Source: a phage
Sequence record: PV419677.1
DNA: 64,000 nt
Strand: one strand, 5' to 3'
In this document: one piece after another, positions 1 through 43,266 of the stretch
Layout of the letters: every line of letters begins with the position of its first letter
Position numbering within the stretch: the stretch's first letter is position 1
Program-made: the position numbers and the translations under genes
The notes under the pieces: generated by a model
What the model saw: the letters and a program-made list of their open reading frames with translations, nothing else
Databases searched by the model: none
What the model was told of the DNA's origin: nothing

Positions 1-158
1 GTCAAATTGTGTGGCAGGTCTTGACGAATCCACGCTTTATAAAGCGCTTCTTTAATCGGACCTGCAAGCTGCCACTTTGTTCCGTTTTGACTAATAACAT
101 AATCAGCAGTCGTATCTTTACCACTGCGTTTTTTACCCACAATCGCAATTAATTTCAT
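1..158 (-). CDS. 1: dNMP kinase (T4 gene 1), N-terminal portion only; ORF runs off the window start
   Basis: Reverse translation from ATG at 158 gives MKLIAIVGKKRSGKDTTADYVISQNGTKWQLAGPIKEALYKAW..., with P-loop GKKRSGKDT and a close match to the recalled T4 gp1 N-terminus; start overlaps the upstream stop (ATGA). Confidence 0.7.
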   Translation of the reverse strand, partial: MKLIAIVGKKRSGKDTTADYVISQNGTKWQLAGPIKEALYKAWIRQDLPHNL

Positions 159-754
159 ACGTTTCTCATAGATGGATGCATTGACTTAGACCTGATTTCC
201 TGTTGCATTGCTGCATTACTATCAATCTGTGGTCTACCTTCTATTATTATACCATCAATTTCTACAGCAAAAGACTTAAAGTTAAAAGTTGCTGTTGCAT
301 TGATAGCCGGGTCAGAATCTTCTTTATATGAGTACTGAATCTCTGACAGGTCGGACGGCCATGCTCCATAGTAATGGATTGACATGACAATTTTGTCCTT
401 GTTGTTATCTAAGATATGAAGCGTGACCGCTTCGGGGCGACCCTTCGGATGCCATGCTTTTGATTCGTGTGTGATGTAGTTGTTGAGCGAGAGCATCCAT
501 TTATAGATGTCAAGCCATGCTCTTAAGTCTTTGTCACACAGAAAGTTAACAATCAGTGGGTCGAATTCTATTGTACTACCAGGAAGGCTGGAGCGATTTA
601 TACCTTGTGTTCCGCCCGGAACATCCGTCACAGGAATGTGAACTCCAGGGAGGGTAACATCTTGAACGTTGAGTTTAAAGGTCTGTGTGAGGTTTGAATC
701 GCTTACCTCTAATATAAAGTTAGTCGTGTTAGTTTGATTATATAAACCTGACAT
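155..754 (-). CDS. 3: tail completion / sheath stabilizer protein gp3 (assigned by position between genes 1 and 2)
   Basis: 199 aa ORF in track; SD AAGGTG upstream of ATG at 754; synteny 1-3-2-4 as in T4; sequence not independently recognised. Confidence 0.5.
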   Translation of the reverse strand: MSGLYNQTNTTNFILEVSDSNLTQTFKLNVQDVTLPGVHIPVTDVPGGTQGINRSSLPGSTIEFDPLIVNFLCDKDLRAWLDIYKWMLSLNNYITHESKAWHPKGRPEAVTLHILDNNKDKIVMSIHYYGAWPSDLSEIQYSYKEDSDPAINATATFNFKSFAVEIDGIIIEGRPQIDSNAAMQQEIRSKSMHPSMRNV

Positions 755-766
755 AATGCACCTTGT

Positions 767-804
767 TTGCTTTAAAACAATCAGTGTTATAATGGTTCTA
801 GACC
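767..804 (+). promoter_or_regulatory. MotA-type middle promoter module (TTGCTTTA, 13 nt, TATAAT) followed by palindromic element GGTTCTAGACC; oriented antisense to the downstream HNH gene
   Basis: TTGCTTTA at 767-774, TATAAT at 788-793, GGTTCTAGACC at 794-804; same module recurs at 37917-37955, 43231-43266, 61727-61764 and in variant form at 27761-27797. Confidence 0.45.
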
Positions 805-839
805 TTTTGTCCTTACCAATAACACTGACCGATAATAGA

Positions 840-1514
840 TTATTTTATTAATGTGTTAAGTCTTAGCTTAGTCATAAACGGATAACGTTCCAACATTGGC
901 TTTACCCAGTATCGAGGATGCAATTCCTTTTTATATGCTAGGACCAACTCTCGAGCTTGCTCGACGGTATCAACTCCGAAGTTTTTACACATTTCTTGCC
1001 TATCTTTTTCCCACCGGCGCTTTCTCAATTCATCCTGAATCTCTTTATTTTTAAAATGTTCATTATTGCGAGAATGTTTTGTACCCTTGGTTGGACTGTA
1101 ATGTCTTCCTTTGACAAACCCATCCGGAACATCTTCCCATGGAAATAGTTTTATCGATTTGACACCATTATTAAAGTAAACTTTACCGGTTTGACTTTTA
1201 GAAATATTGTCAGCGTGCCTACGTCTTAACCAACCAAATAATTTATTATTGCGTTTCAAATACTTGCTTGACTGACTCATAGATGTGGCGGCAAAACTTA
1301 AACCTGGATTTGTATGATATATTTTAACCAATAGTTGATGGGCTACATAATGTTCCTCTGGAGTCAAATCGACCAGATTATCTGGGTCATTGGAACCGCC
1401 CATACATTTTGGAATGATGTGATGAGATTCTTTATATGAAATCAGGACCCTATTACGGGCCCTTTCAATTAACGATAAATATATAAACTGATAATTCAAA
1501 GTGAATTTCTCCAT
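840..1514 (-). CDS. HNH homing endonuclease (freestanding, Mob-like)
   Basis: Motif [31 protein letters not shown] is a classic HNH core; AT-rich relative to neighbours; absent from this position in T4; start overlaps the 3' end of gene 2 by 19 nt. Confidence 0.8.
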
Positions 1515-2332
1515 ACTTTCTGTGAAGAAAATCTTTTGCCTTTTGAAAAAAACTGCTGAAGGGGGAGTAATACAACGTTTGCCCAGTCGCTGGGCTTGAT
1601 TTCAGTGATAGTACCTTTTATATTGCCAGGTATATATGCTTTAATCATCTGGTCAGCCCCTTTAAATCCCTTCACCTTTGACCAATCAATCTTCAGATGA
1701 GTCTTGTTTGTAATCGTAGGAGTATTGGCATATTGTTTAAGAAGTTCCTCAAGGAACTCTTGACGTGCCTTCGGTGGAATATAGTGCAAGTTCAAACCAT
1801 ACATCAAATTGTGCTTACCTAGCCCAAGATAAATGATTAACGGATATTTGTCCCAGTATGGAAGAGTATCCTTATGCTTTGCATCATAGATATAAGCATA
1901 AAGTTTGCCCGGTTGAGGTTTAGCCGTTACGTGCCCACGAACTGATTTCTTAATTGTCTCTGCGAACCATCTGGCAGATTTGGTGTTGCTTGCAGCACCT
2001 TCGTTAGCAATCTTATCTCTTATGCTCTTTCTAAAGCTATTCACCATTATCAGCTGGCGTTCTGCCTTCGTAAGTTTACCAGCAGGTTTCTTTTTGAGTT
2101 TAGATACTTTATAAGCAGTCTGAATTCTTGAATTGTATCTTGACATGCTTTTGGTAAAGGTCGAATAGTTGATTCCTTTCTCTTCAGCAAACTTCTTCGA
2201 GGTCATTCCCTTTTCTTTTGCTGTATAAAATTCAACCCCTATCTCAACCCATTGTTGTTCGGATTTACTGGGTTTCGGACCTGGTTTATCTGCAGATTCA
2301 TTGATAAATGTAAAAATACTCATCCTTTCCAT
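1496..2332 (-). CDS. 2: gp2 DNA end-protector protein
   Basis: 278 aa (T4 gp2 about 274 aa); synteny between genes 3 and 4. Confidence 0.75.
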
Positions 2333-3048
2333 CCTTCTATAAAATTAATCAAATCATTTTTTAAATAGTATGGTAAGGTTTCTGTATAGCCATCGACCAT
2401 AATATCTTTATTCAAATAACCTCTGTCTTTTATATATAATACAGATATTGCGGATTCTAACATTTTGGCTTGTGCACCCAGTTCAAATTCTCGATAATAT
2501 AATTTGGAACTAATGCATTTGGAAAAATGATTTTGCTGCCACAATCTAAAATCATGATTGGAAGTTATACCATACTTTAAAGCAGTTCCGCCCGGATATT
2601 CTATTTTATTAACATAAACAATAGCAGGTTTCTTTGCGTTAAATCCTTTGTGACAACAGTTTGGACATCCTTTGTTTTTTGTTGTAAAGTTGTTTAGATT
2701 TGTAATCCAACTGGTTGAACATGTAGAACACTTTATATAGGCTTTTGATTTTGTAAAAGTTGAATATGTGGTATCCCATTTATCAAAACTATACAATGGA
2801 TTCACGGAATTTATTCTTGTGATTGCATCTAATTCAGATATTAATTTGCTTTCACCATAAGAACGTTTTAAATTACAATTAGAACACCAACTTTTTGTTT
2901 TTAACTTATGCTTTAAAACAGTTGCTTTGTATTTGCATGTTTCTTCACATATAAAGCACTTTACAAATATCAAAGTTTTTGATTTATTAAAATCGCCTTG
3001 TCCCACTATCTCGCCATTTGTGATGTTAAAATCTGAACAATCGTACAT
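2320..3048 (-). CDS. Cys-rich protein (four CxxC pairs) with GIY-YIG-like C-terminal half; putative nuclease inserted between genes 2 and 4
   Basis: N-terminal [23 protein letters not shown]; C-terminal [29 protein letters not shown]...YREFELG resembles the GIY(10-11)YIG, Arg and Glu pattern of I-TevI-type domains; start ATG overlaps gp4 stop (TAATG), stop overlaps gp2 start. Confidence 0.45.
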
Positions 3049-3500
3049 TATAAACCCTTATATCCCATTTTTCTAAGCGCATCTTCAGTAATCAATCTAA
3101 ACTGGATGCCCATTTTATCGGCTACGGCCTGCGCTGCTTTCCACTTATCCTTGTTGACGGCCCAAGTGTACATTTCGTTCATGAATCTCTTCTTGCTCGC
3201 GGCAGTCGTATTAACTGGTTTTGCTGGAGGCCTTGTTTCCTTTTTGGGTTTGACCTCAAAGAAAAACTGTTGTCCATTTGAGAATTTCACCCACATATCC
3301 ATGTAATATCTGCGTTTTTTACCATCCGCATTACTGAAATATGGAATAATTACGGTCTCTGACCCCCATTGCACCACATCTGGATGATTATCCAACCAGT
3401 TAAATACAAATTTTTCCCAGTTTGACCTGTATGTGATTTTCTTCCAGTCTCCTTTGTACTTGGCAACGTTTTTTGGCTGCCACTTCCCGGAGTATGCCAT
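3048..3500 (-). CDS. 4: gp4 head completion protein
   Basis: 150 aa, same length as T4 gp4; SD AGGAGG before ATG at 3500; synteny. Confidence 0.75.
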   Translation of the reverse strand: MAYSGKWQPKNVAKYKGDWKKITYRSNWEKFVFNWLDNHPDVVQWGSETVIIPYFSNADGKKRRYYMDMWVKFSNGQQFFFEVKPKKETRPPAKPVNTTAASKKRFMNEMYTWAVNKDKWKAAQAVADKMGIQFRLITEDALRKMGYKGL

Positions 3501-3548
3501 ATAGCCTCCTAATAAATATTGATATACTTATTTATAAATGGAGGCTTT

Positions 3549-27095: not shown

Positions 27096-27118
27096 GCGCG
27101 TATAATATAAATACGCGC
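27096..27118. repeat. GC-clamped inverted repeat enclosing a late-promoter box, upstream of the HNH gene
   Basis: GCGCGTA-taatataaa-TACGCGC; TATAAATA at 27105-27112 sits in the loop. Confidence 0.5.
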
Positions 27119-27130
27119 AAGGATTTACAA

Positions 27131-27736
27131 GTGATTATTTCTAAATTTGTTGAAGTTCAAATACGAAATCATGCAAAGTGGTGGAGCGAATACTTAGGTA
27201 AAACTCTAACATATCATGATGTGATTTCTGTACCAGTTGAACAAATGCCAGATAATAGTAATAAAAAGATTGAATGTTCCTGTGATGAATGTGGTGCACA
27301 TTTTGAACGTGGTATTCAGTTGCTTCGGCGCGTTGATAAACATTTATGTAAGACCTGCGCAAGAAAAGATGTGGGTGCAAAAGTTTCTGTAAAAATGGCT
27401 GGAGTATCAAGATTTGATTTACGAGGAGAAAACCACCCTAGATGGAAAGGTAATCGCAAAGAATATGATTTGTATGCCCAGCGCATTCATGCATTAACTC
27501 GTGGAAAACATCTAAAGAATATTTGGTCAACATGGGAAAATGCAGATAAGATAGGAAAATGTGGAGAAGAAGGTGCATATCAGCTTGACCATAAAGTTTC
27601 TATTGCATATGGATTTTATAATCATATACCAGAGACAGTTATCGCTTCGCTCAACAATTTAGAAATAGTCACTTGGGAATCTAATAGGTCCAAAGGAAAA
27701 TCAAATAGTATTGACTTATGGGATATATTATCCTGA
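27131..27736 (+). CDS. HNH homing endonuclease with N-terminal zinc ribbon, inserted between genes 18 and 19
   Basis: CSCDEC...CKTC zinc ribbon; ENHPRWKG; YQLDHKVSIAYGF...NNLEIVTWESNRSKG (HNH core); GTG start with SD AAGGA; no gene here in T4. Confidence 0.8.
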   Translation: MIISKFVEVQIRNHAKWWSEYLGKTLTYHDVISVPVEQMPDNSNKKIECSCDECGAHFERGIQLLRRVDKHLCKTCARKDVGAKVSVKMAGVSRFDLRGENHPRWKGNRKEYDLYAQRIHALTRGKHLKNIWSTWENADKIGKCGEEGAYQLDHKVSIAYGFYNHIPETVIASLNNLEIVTWESNRSKGKSNSIDLWDILS

Positions 27737-27760
27737 CAGTAAATGTAATTAAGCAGTAAA

Positions 27761-27813
27761 CCGTAGAACCATTATACAATGCTATAAATAAAAGCATATC
27801 ATCGGTTCTACGG
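27761..27813. repeat. perfect 10-bp inverted repeat (CCGTAGAACC / GGTTCTACGG) with a 33-nt loop carrying promoter signals on both strands
   Basis: Plus-strand TATAAATA at 27783-27790; minus-strand TATAAT (27771-27776) with MotA-like box TGCTTTT upstream, directing transcription antisense into the HNH gene. Confidence 0.5.
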
Positions 27814-27871
27814 ACTCCTCAGAGCTCCTCCAGCGACCTAAATACATTTATTGATGAATCATATTACCTAG

Positions 27872-27879
27872 TATAAATA
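27872..27879 (+). promoter_or_regulatory. late promoter TATAAATA for gene 19
   Basis: Exact TATAAATA about 50 nt upstream of gp19 ATG; followed by palindrome CGCGTACGCG (27893-27902). Confidence 0.55.
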
Positions 27880-27931
27880 CATGCATCAGGGACGCGTACG
27901 CGCGACCTGTGTCTATAAAGAGGATTCCTTA

Positions 27932-37916: not shown

Positions 37917-37955
37917 GGGTCTAGAACCATTATACCGCATTTTTATTTGAAGCAA
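37917..37955 (-). promoter_or_regulatory. MotA-type middle promoter module with GGTTCTAGACC element, upstream of rnlB
   Basis: Minus strand: TTGCTTCA (37955-37948), 13 nt, TATAAT (37934-37929), then GGTTCTAGACCC. Confidence 0.5.
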
Positions 37956-43230: not shown

Positions 43231-43266
43231 GGTCTAGAACCATTATACAGCCATAAAATTAAAGCA
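43231..43266 (-). promoter_or_regulatory. MotA-type middle promoter module with GGTTCTAGACC element, upstream of uvsY
   Basis: Minus strand: AATGCTTTA (box at 43266-43260, overlapping gp25 stop), 12 nt, TATAAT (43247-43242), GGTTCTAGACC (43241-43231). Confidence 0.55.

What the first reader, a model, noticed from the sequence alone, without database searches (positions are those of the whole stretch)
767..842. Middle-promoter cassette aimed antisense into the HNH gene between genes 3 and 2
The 85-bp gap between the HNH stop (840) and the gene-3 start (754) contains, on the plus strand, TTGCTTTA, 13 nt, TATAAT, GGTTCTAGACC: a textbook MotA-box middle promoter whose transcript would run antisense through the minus-strand HNH ORF. 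The HNH gene between 18 and 19 has the same arrangement (minus-strand TATAAT plus GGTTCTACGG at 27761-27797 pointing back into that ORF). Two independent HNH genes each faced by a convergent promoter suggests antisense or transcriptional-interference control of endonuclease expression.
Basis: partly seen in the sequence, partly recalled or inferred. Interest (0 to 1): 0.6.

Follow-up and report, generated by a model that had tools for sequence, protein, structure and literature searches.

The report
Conserved orphan middle promoter, not HNH-specific
The promoter-like sequence looks like a real "middle" promoter pointing backwards into late genes and is conserved across T4-like phages, but it was there before the HNH endonuclease gene landed next to it, so it is not a dedicated control for that gene.

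Summary
The window is a T4-like Gaprivervirus. On the + strand it reads GTTTGCTTTA (765-774), 13 nt, TGT-TATAAT (785-793), GGTTCTAGACC (794-804). The second copy lies on the - strand at 27760-27796. It is not chance: the strict pattern occurs twice against 0.01 expected.

The HNH link fails. The 85-bp spacer is identical in relatives that lack the HNH gene, and deleting 843-1501 recreates their empty site exactly. The 18/19 element is also present in insert-free genomes.

A MotA box, TATAAT and GG in the same antisense orientation sit in the gene 2/gene 3 spacer of seven lineages, including T4 itself (about 75,968-76,002). The rest of the spacer has diverged. This T4 site is absent from the published list of 58 T4 middle promoters.

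Four copies of TATAATGGTTCTA occur in the window. Two are the sense promoters of rnlB and uvsY, which match the mapped T4 promoters PrnlB and PuvsY.

Best reading: a native orphan MotA-type promoter that makes a non-coding transcript antisense to late genes, like T4 P34i. The HNH gene is an incidental passenger. The function (antisense damping or origin-like R-loop) is unresolved.

The parts
765..774 (+). MotA box GTTTGCTTTA (core TGCTTTA at 768-774)
   Evidence: Matches 9 of 10 positions of the consensus (a/t)(a/t)(a/t)TGCTTtA (PMC2988021). GCT and the final A are invariant across 7 lineages.
785..793 (+). Extended -10 element: TGT followed by TATAAT (788-793), 13 nt downstream of the MotA box
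   Evidence: TATAAT is invariant in all 7 lineages.
794..804 (+). Conserved -10-proximal and initial transcribed core GGTTCTAGACC. Predicted start is A800, inferred from the mapped T4 PuvsY start, which lies 7 nt after the -10.
   Evidence: The same core follows the -10 at the rnlB and uvsY promoters and, through GGTTCTA, at the 18/19 promoter.
781..828 (-). Inverted repeat TCAGTGTTAT (781-790) / ATAACACTGA (819-828). It forms a hairpin in the sense (late, minus-strand) gene 2 to gene 3 RNA and is followed by UUGUUUU.
   Evidence: Fold gives dG -23.9 kcal/mol, z = -4.96. Hairpins occur in other lineages but at different positions relative to the promoter.
831..842 (-). TAATCTATTATC: the stop codon used by gene 2 in empty genomes and by the HNH ORF here, plus 9 conserved nt
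   Evidence: Conserved in Gaprivervirus and Dhakavirus-like contigs, and as TAATTCTATTATC in T4. It is the only exact copy in the window.
843..1501 (-). 659-bp HNH homing-endonuclease insertion (ORF 840-1499/1514)
   Evidence: Deleting it recreates the EAWsc9 empty site. PHROG 655 homing endonuclease. Weak Pfam HNH match.
155..754 (-). Gene 3 (tail completion and sheath stabilizer)
   Evidence: Annotation of the identical record OR670333.
1496..2332 (-). Gene 2 (DNA end protector). In HNH-less genomes its 3' end is the first target of the antisense transcript.
27760..27814 (-). Second orphan promoter, in the native 18/19 spacer. MotA box TGCTTTT 27796-27790, TATAAT 27776-27771, GGTTCTACGG 27770-27761. 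It lies inside the inverted repeat 27760-27770 / 27804-27813. The + strand late promoter TATAAATA (27783-27790) sits between the box and the -10.
   Evidence: Present in HNH-less EAWsc9 and VR20.
27131..27736 (+). gp19.1 ORF, a gene that is present in some relatives and absent in others. HNH status unconfirmed.
   Evidence: Absent in EAWsc9 and most relatives. PHROG 5104. No Pfam or NCBIfam HNH hit.
37922..37954 (-). Paralogous sense promoter upstream of rnlB (TGCTTCA-13-TATAAT-GGTTCTAGACCC)
   Evidence: The downstream ORF is RNA ligase 2. T4 has a mapped PrnlB.
43235..43266 (-). Paralogous sense promoter upstream of uvsY (TGCTTTA-12-TATAAT-GGTTCTAGACCC), the positional homologue of T4 PuvsY/oriF
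   Evidence: The downstream ORF is UvsY (Pfam E = 2.4e-50).

Best explanation
The motif at 765-804 is a native, evolutionarily conserved MotA/AsiA-type middle promoter in the gene 2/gene 3 spacer of T4-like phages.

Inferred mechanism: at middle times, RNA polymerase modified by AsiA and MotA binds the box at about -30 and the TGnTATAAT -10. It starts near A800 and transcribes the + strand. This gives a non-coding transcript antisense to the 3' end of the late 4-2-3 operon.

It is one of three orphan antisense middle promoters in this genus. The others are in the 18/19 spacer and inside gene 34, the P34i/oriG homologue. It belongs to a small set of near-identical promoter cores (TATAATGGTTCTAGACC) shared with the uvsY and rnlB promoters.

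The HNH gene was inserted later, between the promoter and gene 2. It is crossed by the transcript only incidentally.

Most likely role (inferred, about 40%): convergent transcription or antisense pairing that damps prereplicative expression or read-through of the late operon's 3' end, whatever gene lies there.

Shown: the sequence, its non-randomness, its conservation, its independence from the HNH gene, and its paralogy to known promoters.
Inferred: promoter activity in vivo, the start site and the function.
For: - The motif is exact, with 0.01 expected against 2 found for the strict pattern.
- It fits the published consensus and the 12 +/- 1 spacing (PMC2988021).
- There is no usable -35.
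- The genus encodes motA and asiA (VR7 annotation).
- The three sense-oriented strict hits in the window lie upstream of rnlB, uvsY and, by position in the VR7 genome map, gene 30. These match the mapped T4 promoters PrnlB, PuvsY and P30, so the pattern is predictive here.
- The spacer is identical in HNH-less genomes, and the empty site is regenerated by deleting 843-1501.
- An antisense MotA box, TATAAT and GG are conserved in 7 lineages with gp3 identity down to about 51%. The only invariant columns are GCT..A, TATAATGG and one C.
- T4 has it at about 75,968-76,002(+).
- In a whole-genome scan of VR7, the only antisense MotA/TATAAT promoters are 2/3, 18/19 and the gene 34 internal one.
- No conserved ORF lies downstream.
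Against: - There is no transcript evidence.
[quoted passage not shown] It may therefore be weak or silent in vivo.
- MotA-like sequences with GATT boxes are known to be inactive on modified T4 DNA, so sequence alone is not proof.
- The -10 overlaps one arm of a strong sense-strand hairpin, which could contribute to its conservation within this genus.
- Phages in which genes 2 and 3 overlap lack the promoter, so it is dispensable.
- The proposed damping role is untested. At the 18/19 site there is no obvious prereplicative sense transcription to damp.
Confidence: 0.7

Rival explanations
1. Origin-type promoter. The orphan promoters at 2/3 and 18/19 work like T4 P34i (oriG) and PuvsY (oriF). The middle transcript forms a persistent R-loop in the A+T-rich DNA downstream and primes leading-strand synthesis. 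In T4 the 76.0-kb copy would contribute to the nearby oriE.
For: - The only characterised orphan antisense middle promoter in a T4 late gene, P34i, is a replication origin.
- The core is shared with PuvsY/oriF in both T4 and this genus.
- All three orphans in VR7 carry the GG[TG][TC]C core, against 3 of about 12 sense promoters.
- Positions are interchangeable between genera. T4 has 2/3 only; the contigs where genes 2 and 3 overlap have 18/19 only; Gaprivervirus and Dhakavirus-like contigs have both. This fits a position-independent role.
- The downstream 60 nt are 67-72% A+T, against a window mean of 59% and 70% at oriF.
- The T4 site is about 2 kb from repEB/oriE.
Against: - Similarity to PuvsY stops at about +12. 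No unwinding-element homology was found.
- The closest paralogue of site A is the ordinary rnlB mRNA promoter, so the core is not origin-specific.
- Plasmid screens for T4 origin fragments yielded only oriF and oriG.
- The review attributes oriE to an early promoter.
- The A+T enrichment is only about 1 SD in the empty configuration.
Confidence: 0.2
2. One reading: the convergent promoters are dedicated antisense or transcriptional-interference controls of HNH endonuclease expression.
For: In this genome both elements do face a gene that is present in some relatives and absent in others. No + strand intrinsic terminator lies between 800 and 1500, so the HNH ORF would be transcribed antisense at middle times. 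Tight regulation of homing endonucleases is known, but by other means (PMC2988022).
Against: - The promoters are identical in genomes without the inserts.
- They are conserved in T4 and other genera with no HNH there.
- Most T4 homing-endonuclease genes in late regions are not next to such promoters.
- The HNH ORF has no promoter of its own and overlaps the gene 2 stop. The only upstream late promoter found by the exact TATAAATA scan is at 3536(-). It is therefore probably made late, after middle promoters shut off.
- gp19.1 has its own late promoter (27106) and is not demonstrably an HNH protein.
Confidence: 0.05
3. Not a promoter. The + strand motif is a by-product of sense-strand signals, namely a hairpin or terminator between genes 2 and 3 and the leader of gene 3.
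For: There is a strong sense-RNA hairpin (dG -23.9 kcal/mol, z = -4.96) followed by UUGUUUU, and the TATAAT overlaps one arm. Dhakavirus-like spacers also have an inverted repeat around the -10.
Against: - Hairpins lie at different places in different lineages, while box, spacing, TATAAT and GG stay fixed.
- T4 and L016/L017 keep the promoter outside any hairpin.
- Chance or hairpin constraints do not explain a MotA box at 12-13 nt in 7 lineages, nor identity with the uvsY and rnlB promoter cores.
Confidence: 0.08

Closest known systems
T4 P34i, the MotA-dependent middle promoter inside late gene 34 (oriG / ori(34))
   Same: An orphan middle promoter in a late region, oriented against the late gene, with no ORF to express. 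The box, spacing and TATAATGG architecture are the same. Its homologue is present in this genus (VR7 151942).
   Different: It lies inside a coding sequence rather than in a spacer. Origin activity is demonstrated for P34i and untested here. The downstream sequences are unrelated.
T4 PuvsY (oriF) and PrnlB middle promoters
   Same: The window's uvsY and rnlB promoters share 20-50 bp of near-identical core with the 2/3 element. T4's own 2/3 element and PuvsY share GTGGTATAATG..TCTAAGTCC.
   Different: Those promoters drive sense mRNAs for uvsY and rnlB. The 2/3 and 18/19 copies have no downstream gene and run antisense.
PeSL promoter/stem-loop regulatory cassettes of T4-like phages (Arbiol 2010; Comeau 2014, PMC4122927)
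   Same: Short, repeated, conserved promoter-plus-stem-loop modules found next to insertions and deletions.
   Different: PeSLs are early sigma-70 promoters with a terminator, co-oriented with small ORFs in the variable (hyperplastic) regions of the genome. Here the promoter is MotA-type, antisense, and lies in spacers of the core late region. The inserts are not flanked by two copies.
Known controls of T4 homing-endonuclease genes (promoter choice, autorepression, internal terminators, hairpins that hide the ribosome-binding site; PMC2988022, PMC3014915)
   Same: These concern how a mobile endonuclease gene fits into the host transcription programme.
   Different: None uses a dedicated convergent promoter, and the element here predates the endonuclease gene.

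Membership tests
MotA/AsiA-dependent T4 middle promoter | MotA box (a/t)(a/t)(a/t)TGCTTtA centred near -30 | tested here: met
   GTTTGCTTTA at 765-774 matches 9 of 10 positions. The consensus is from PMC2988021.
MotA/AsiA-dependent T4 middle promoter | Box positioned 12 +/- 1 bp upstream of the -10 | tested here: met
   13 nt at sites A, B and C and 12 nt at D. Spacing is 12-13 nt in the other lineages.
MotA/AsiA-dependent T4 middle promoter | Excellent sigma-70 -10 (TAtaaT), often with TGn, and no functional -35 | tested here: met
   TGT-TATAAT at 785-793. The -35/-10 scan does not pick up the site.
MotA/AsiA-dependent T4 middle promoter | The phage encodes MotA and AsiA | tested here: met
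   motA and asiA are annotated in the congeneric VR7 genome. These genes lie outside the 64-kb window.
MotA/AsiA-dependent T4 middle promoter | MotA- and AsiA-dependent initiation demonstrated (primer extension, in vitro transcription) | not testable with these tools
   The T4 homologue is absent from the list of 58 mapped promoters. The dRNA-seq start-site table is not held.
T4 R-loop origin (oriF/oriG type) | Middle-mode promoter | tested here: met
   Met at sequence level only (see the rows above).
T4 R-loop origin (oriF/oriG type) | A+T-rich unwinding element within about 50-100 bp downstream | tested here: inconclusive
   The region +1 to +60 is 66.7% A+T in the empty configuration and 71.7% with the HNH insert. 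The window mean is 59.3% (sd 6.9) and oriF is 70%. No homology to oriF extends beyond about +12.
T4 R-loop origin (oriF/oriG type) | Persistent R-loop, or autonomous replication of a plasmid carrying the fragment | not testable with these tools
   Historical plasmid screens recovered only oriF and oriG.
   The promoter is identical in HNH-less genomes. The empty site is regenerated by deleting 843-1501. The promoter is present in T4 and four other lineages.
PeSL mobile regulatory cassette | Early sigma-70 promoter plus terminator stem-loop, co-oriented with flanking ORFs in variable (hyperplastic) regions | tested here: not met
   The element is middle-type, antisense and in core late-gene spacers.
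PeSL mobile regulatory cassette | Near-identical repeated copies located at insertion/deletion boundaries | tested here: inconclusive
   There are four exact 13-mer copies. Two of them abut insertions, but the inserts are not bracketed by two copies.

The most novel reading that the evidence does not exclude
The orphan MotA promoters in the late-gene spacers (2/3 and 18/19) are additional R-loop origin or primer promoters of T4-like phages. On this reading, the unlisted T4 copy at about 76.0 kb is a missing middle-mode component of oriE. The shared, within-genome co-varying core TATAATGGnYCYAG, also found at PuvsY/oriF and P34i/oriG, marks a functional subclass recognised by something beyond MotA and sigma-70.
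Probability: 0.15. Interest if true: 0.65.

Novelty: new member of a known kind. Interest (0 to 1): 0.35.

Why it matters
For the finding as written, the result is corrective. The promoter that appears to face the endonuclease gene is a coincidence of insertion, not a regulatory device.

What remains is modest but real. A conserved, apparently unlisted orphan middle promoter sits between genes 2 and 3 of T4 itself and its relatives, and a second sits between genes 18 and 19 in some genera. If active, they are defined sources of prereplicative RNA antisense to late genes.

They also enlarge the very small class of non-coding MotA promoters, whose only studied member is a replication origin. That makes two questions directly testable with existing T4 genetics and public dRNA-seq data. 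First, what antisense transcription of late genes is for. Second, whether oriE really lacks a middle-mode promoter.

Tried and rejected
- **Chance match:** rejected by shuffles and by conservation across lineages.
- **Promoter carried by the HNH cassette:** rejected by comparison with empty sites.
- **Duplicated oriF module:** pairwise alignments show identity only from about -27 to +17 at best.
- **Conserved sense-strand hairpin as the real feature:** folding seven lineages shows hairpins at non-homologous positions.
- **Small ORF or defined sRNA:** no conserved ORF was found. A + strand terminator-like hairpin at 1581-1595 lies inside the gene 2 coding sequence, and by eye it is not conserved in Dhakavirus-like contigs.
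- **TAATCTATTATC as a repeated motif in this genome:** only one exact copy.
- **Literature:** no antisense-promoter control of homing endonucleases was found, and no hit for "anti-late RNA". Miller 2003, Brister & Nossal 2007, Brister 2008 and Vaiskunaite 1999 are not held.
- **T4 records:** the GenBank entries carry no promoter features here.
- **T4 dRNA-seq preprint:** it reports 150 T4 start sites, 22 of them antisense, but the table is not in the held supplement.
- **gp19.1 as an HNH protein:** profile searches did not confirm it.

Full report
**What the window is.** The first 4.2 kb is 100% identical to Shigella phage fPSFA and 90-98% identical to Gaprivervirus phages (DK-13, RZ, VR7, VR25 and others). 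The gene order matches T4: gene 1, gene 3 (155-754, -), a putative mobile endonuclease (840-1499/1514, -), gene 2 (1496-2332, -), a further ORF (2320-3048, -), gene 4 (3048-3500, -) and gene 53 (+).

The gap between the HNH stop and the gene 3 start is 85 bp. On the + strand it holds GTTTGCTTTA (765-774), 13 nt, TGT (785-787), TATAAT (788-793) and GGTTCTAGACC (794-804). This fits the published T4 middle-promoter definition: MotA box (a/t)(a/t)(a/t)TGCTTtA placed 12 +/- 1 bp from a TAtaaT -10, often with TGn (PMC2988021). A generic -35/-10 scan does not flag the site, as expected for a promoter that lacks a -35. The second site is also as described, on the - strand: TGCTTTT (27796-27790), 13 nt, TATAAT (27776-27771) and GGTTCTACGG (27770-27761).

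**It is not chance.**
- TGCTTTA-N11-13-TATAAT occurs twice in the window against 0.01 expected.
- The 13-mer TAGAACCATTATA, the reverse complement of TATAATGGTTCTA, occurs four times exactly: 788-800(-), 27764(+), 37922(+) and 43235(+).
- Every copy has TGCTT 12-13 nt upstream of the -10.

**The link to the HNH gene fails.**
- DK-13 and EAWsc9 lack the endonuclease gene. In them gene 2 ends at the same TAA (840-842) and the same 85-bp spacer follows.
- The spacer is 100% identical in EAWsc9. In DK-13 it differs by one base, outside the motif.
- Deleting 843-1501 (659 bp) from the window regenerates the empty site exactly.
- By BLAST coverage classes, and by annotation where it was checked, most of the 34 close relatives appear to lack the insert.
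- The 18/19 element behaves the same way. The block AAACCGTAGAACCATTATACA..TATAAATAAAAGCATA..GGTTCTACGG is present, between gene 18 and gene 19, in relatives that lack the gp19.1 ORF.

Both promoters are therefore native spacer features. The mobile genes were inserted just after the stop codon of gene 2 or gene 18, between that gene and a promoter that already pointed at it. In addition, gp19.1 cannot be confirmed as an HNH protein by Pfam or NCBIfam. The 2/3 ORF is a clear homing-endonuclease family member (PHROG 655).

**What the element is.** I collected the gene 2/gene 3 spacer from 25 IMG/VR contigs of T4-like phages.
- An antisense MotA box, 12-13 nt, TATAAT and GG is present in seven lineages: Gaprivervirus, Dhakavirus-like, four further lineages (L016, L017, L022, L024) and the T4 group.
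- gp3 identity to the window falls to about 51% across these lineages.
- In a MAFFT alignment the only invariant columns are GCT and A of the box, TATAATGG, and one C near +5. The sequence between box and -10, and everything past about +12, has diverged. This is a promoter footprint.
- T4 itself carries TAATGCTTTATAACTGTTGGTGGTATAATGGGTCTAAGTCC on the + strand between genes 3 and 2, at about 75,968-76,002.
- This T4 site is not in the compiled table of 58 T4 middle promoters. It is not annotated in either T4 GenBank record.
- Contigs in which the gene 2 stop overlaps the gene 3 start lack the element.

**The motif is predictive here.** The window has five strict matches to TGCTTnn-N11-13-TATAAT.
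- Three are in sense orientation, and each matches a mapped T4 promoter (PrnlB, PuvsY, P30).
  - One lies upstream of RNA ligase 2 (rnlB).
  - One lies upstream of UvsY.
  - One lies upstream of gene 30, by position in the VR7 genome map.
- The other two are the antisense sites, A (gene 2/3) and B (gene 18/19).
- A scan of the complete VR7 genome shows that the only antisense MotA/TATAAT promoters are 2/3, 18/19 and one inside gene 34. The last is the clear homologue of T4 P34i, the oriG promoter.
- VR7 encodes motA and asiA.

**A shared core.**
- In VR7 the sequence after the -10 is GGTTCTAGACC at 2/3, rnlB and uvsY. It is GGTTCTACGG at 18/19, GGGTCTAGGTCC at cd.3 and GGTCCCAGAG at 34i.
- Nine other MotA/TATAAT promoters in the early and middle regions lack this core.
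- The core co-varies within genomes. Dhakavirus-like contigs have GGTCCTAGG at 2/3 and GGTCCTATGG at uvsY. T4 has GGGTCTAAGTCC at 2/3 and GAATCTAAGTCC at uvsY.
- Pairwise alignments show that the paralogy is short. It runs from about -4 to +12 in general and from -27 to +17 between site A and the rnlB promoter. What is shared is a promoter core, not a duplicated origin.

I cannot explain the co-variation. Gene conversion, or a factor that contacts the start-site region, are both possible.

**The sense strand.** The minus-strand RNA of the spacer folds into a strong hairpin (arms 781-790 and 819-828; dG -23.9 kcal/mol, z = -4.96) followed by UUGUUUU. Every lineage has some hairpin in this spacer. 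They lie at different positions relative to the promoter: around the -10 in Gaprivervirus and Dhakavirus-like contigs, downstream of it in T4, and next to the gene 3 ribosome-binding site in L016/L017. The hairpin is probably a real feature of the late mRNA, but it does not explain the conserved promoter elements.

**How it most likely works.** This part is inferred. At middle times, AsiA/MotA-modified polymerase starts near A800, by analogy with the mapped T4 PuvsY start 7 nt after the -10. It transcribes the + strand into the 3' end of gene 2, or first through the HNH insert where that is present. I found no conserved ORF and no conserved terminator downstream.

The transcript is therefore a non-coding RNA antisense to late genes. 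Its role is open.
- I rank general antisense or transcription-interference damping of the late operon's 3' end first, at about 40%.
- An oriG-like R-loop or origin role comes second, at about 20%. In its favour are the P34i precedent, the interchangeable positions among genera, the moderately A+T-rich downstream DNA and the closeness of the T4 copy to oriE. Against it are the lack of homology beyond the core, the fact that plasmid screens found only oriF and oriG, and the review's statement that oriE has no middle-mode promoter nearby.

**Consequence for the HNH gene.**
- The endonuclease ORF has no promoter of its own. Its start overlaps the gene 2 stop.
- The only upstream late promoter found by the exact TATAAATA scan is at 3536(-). 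The ORF is therefore probably translated at low level from late mRNA.
- Middle-time antisense transcription across it is a side effect of where it landed.
- Known regulation of T4 homing endonucleases uses promoter choice, autorepression, terminators and hairpins that hide the ribosome-binding site. It does not use convergent promoters.

**Verdict.** The promoter reading is supported at the level of sequence and conservation. The HNH-control reading is not supported. The element is a new member of a known kind, the orphan MotA-type middle promoter. The decisive test is simple: look for a + strand primary 5' end at T4 about 76,001 in the public dRNA-seq data.

Noticed in passing
L007 1469-1503 (T4 NC_000866.4, about 75,968-76,002, + strand): T4 itself has an unannotated MotA-box/TATAAT promoter-like site between genes 3 and 2, antisense to gene 2. 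It is absent from the published table of 58 T4 middle promoters. It shares GTGGTATAATG..TCTAAGTCC with PuvsY (oriF).
   Followed up: partly
window 788-804, 27760-27776, 37922-37934, 43235-43247; VR7 132883 and 151942 (L118, L119): A subset of MotA promoters shares a -10-proximal core (TATAATGG[TG][TC]C[TC]AG). The core co-varies within genomes between distant loci in Gaprivervirus, Dhakavirus-like contigs and T4. All three antisense orphans in VR7 carry it. The cause is unknown.
   Followed up: partly
window 27760-27814: In the 18/19 spacer, the + strand late promoter TATAAATA (27783-27790) lies between the MotA box and the -10 of the - strand promoter. The whole unit sits in the loop of a 10-11 bp inverted repeat (27760-27770 / 27804-27813).
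   Followed up: partly
window 831-842 (-); L011-L015 and L047: TAATCTATTATC (a stop codon plus 9 nt) follows gene 2 in Gaprivervirus and Dhakavirus-like contigs (TAATTCTATTATC in T4). It also follows gene 18 in Dhakavirus-like contigs. The HNH gene here, and gp19.1 in L045, are inserted immediately 5' of it. It might be part of a homing site or an RNA-processing signal.
   Followed up: partly
window 2320-3048 (-): A third gene that is present in some relatives and absent in others lies between genes 2 and 4. It is absent in EAWsc9, VR7 and many relatives. It matches PHROG 681 'endonuclease' and has a weak treble-clef zinc-finger hit, so it is probably another free-standing mobile nuclease.
   Followed up: partly
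window 27096-27118: The gp19.1 insert brings its own late promoter, displayed in the loop of a G+C-rich hairpin (GCGCGTA-TAATATAAA-TACGCGC). A related GCGTACGCGC lies just after the gene 19 late promoter, near 27872-27905.
   Followed up: no
window 1581-1595 (+): A terminator-like hairpin, GCCCAGTCGCTGGGC followed by TTGATTT, lies on the antisense strand inside gene 2. In HNH-less genomes it sits about 125 nt from the predicted start and could define a short antisense RNA. T4 has a comparable CGCCC...GGGCG hairpin by eye. Dhakavirus-like contigs do not.
   Followed up: partly
L015 (IMGVR_UViG_2974497520_000001), upstream of gene 3: By eye, a Dhakavirus-like contig carries what looks like the same family of endonuclease insert at the same junction after gene 2. 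This would suggest homing across genera into this site.
   Followed up: no
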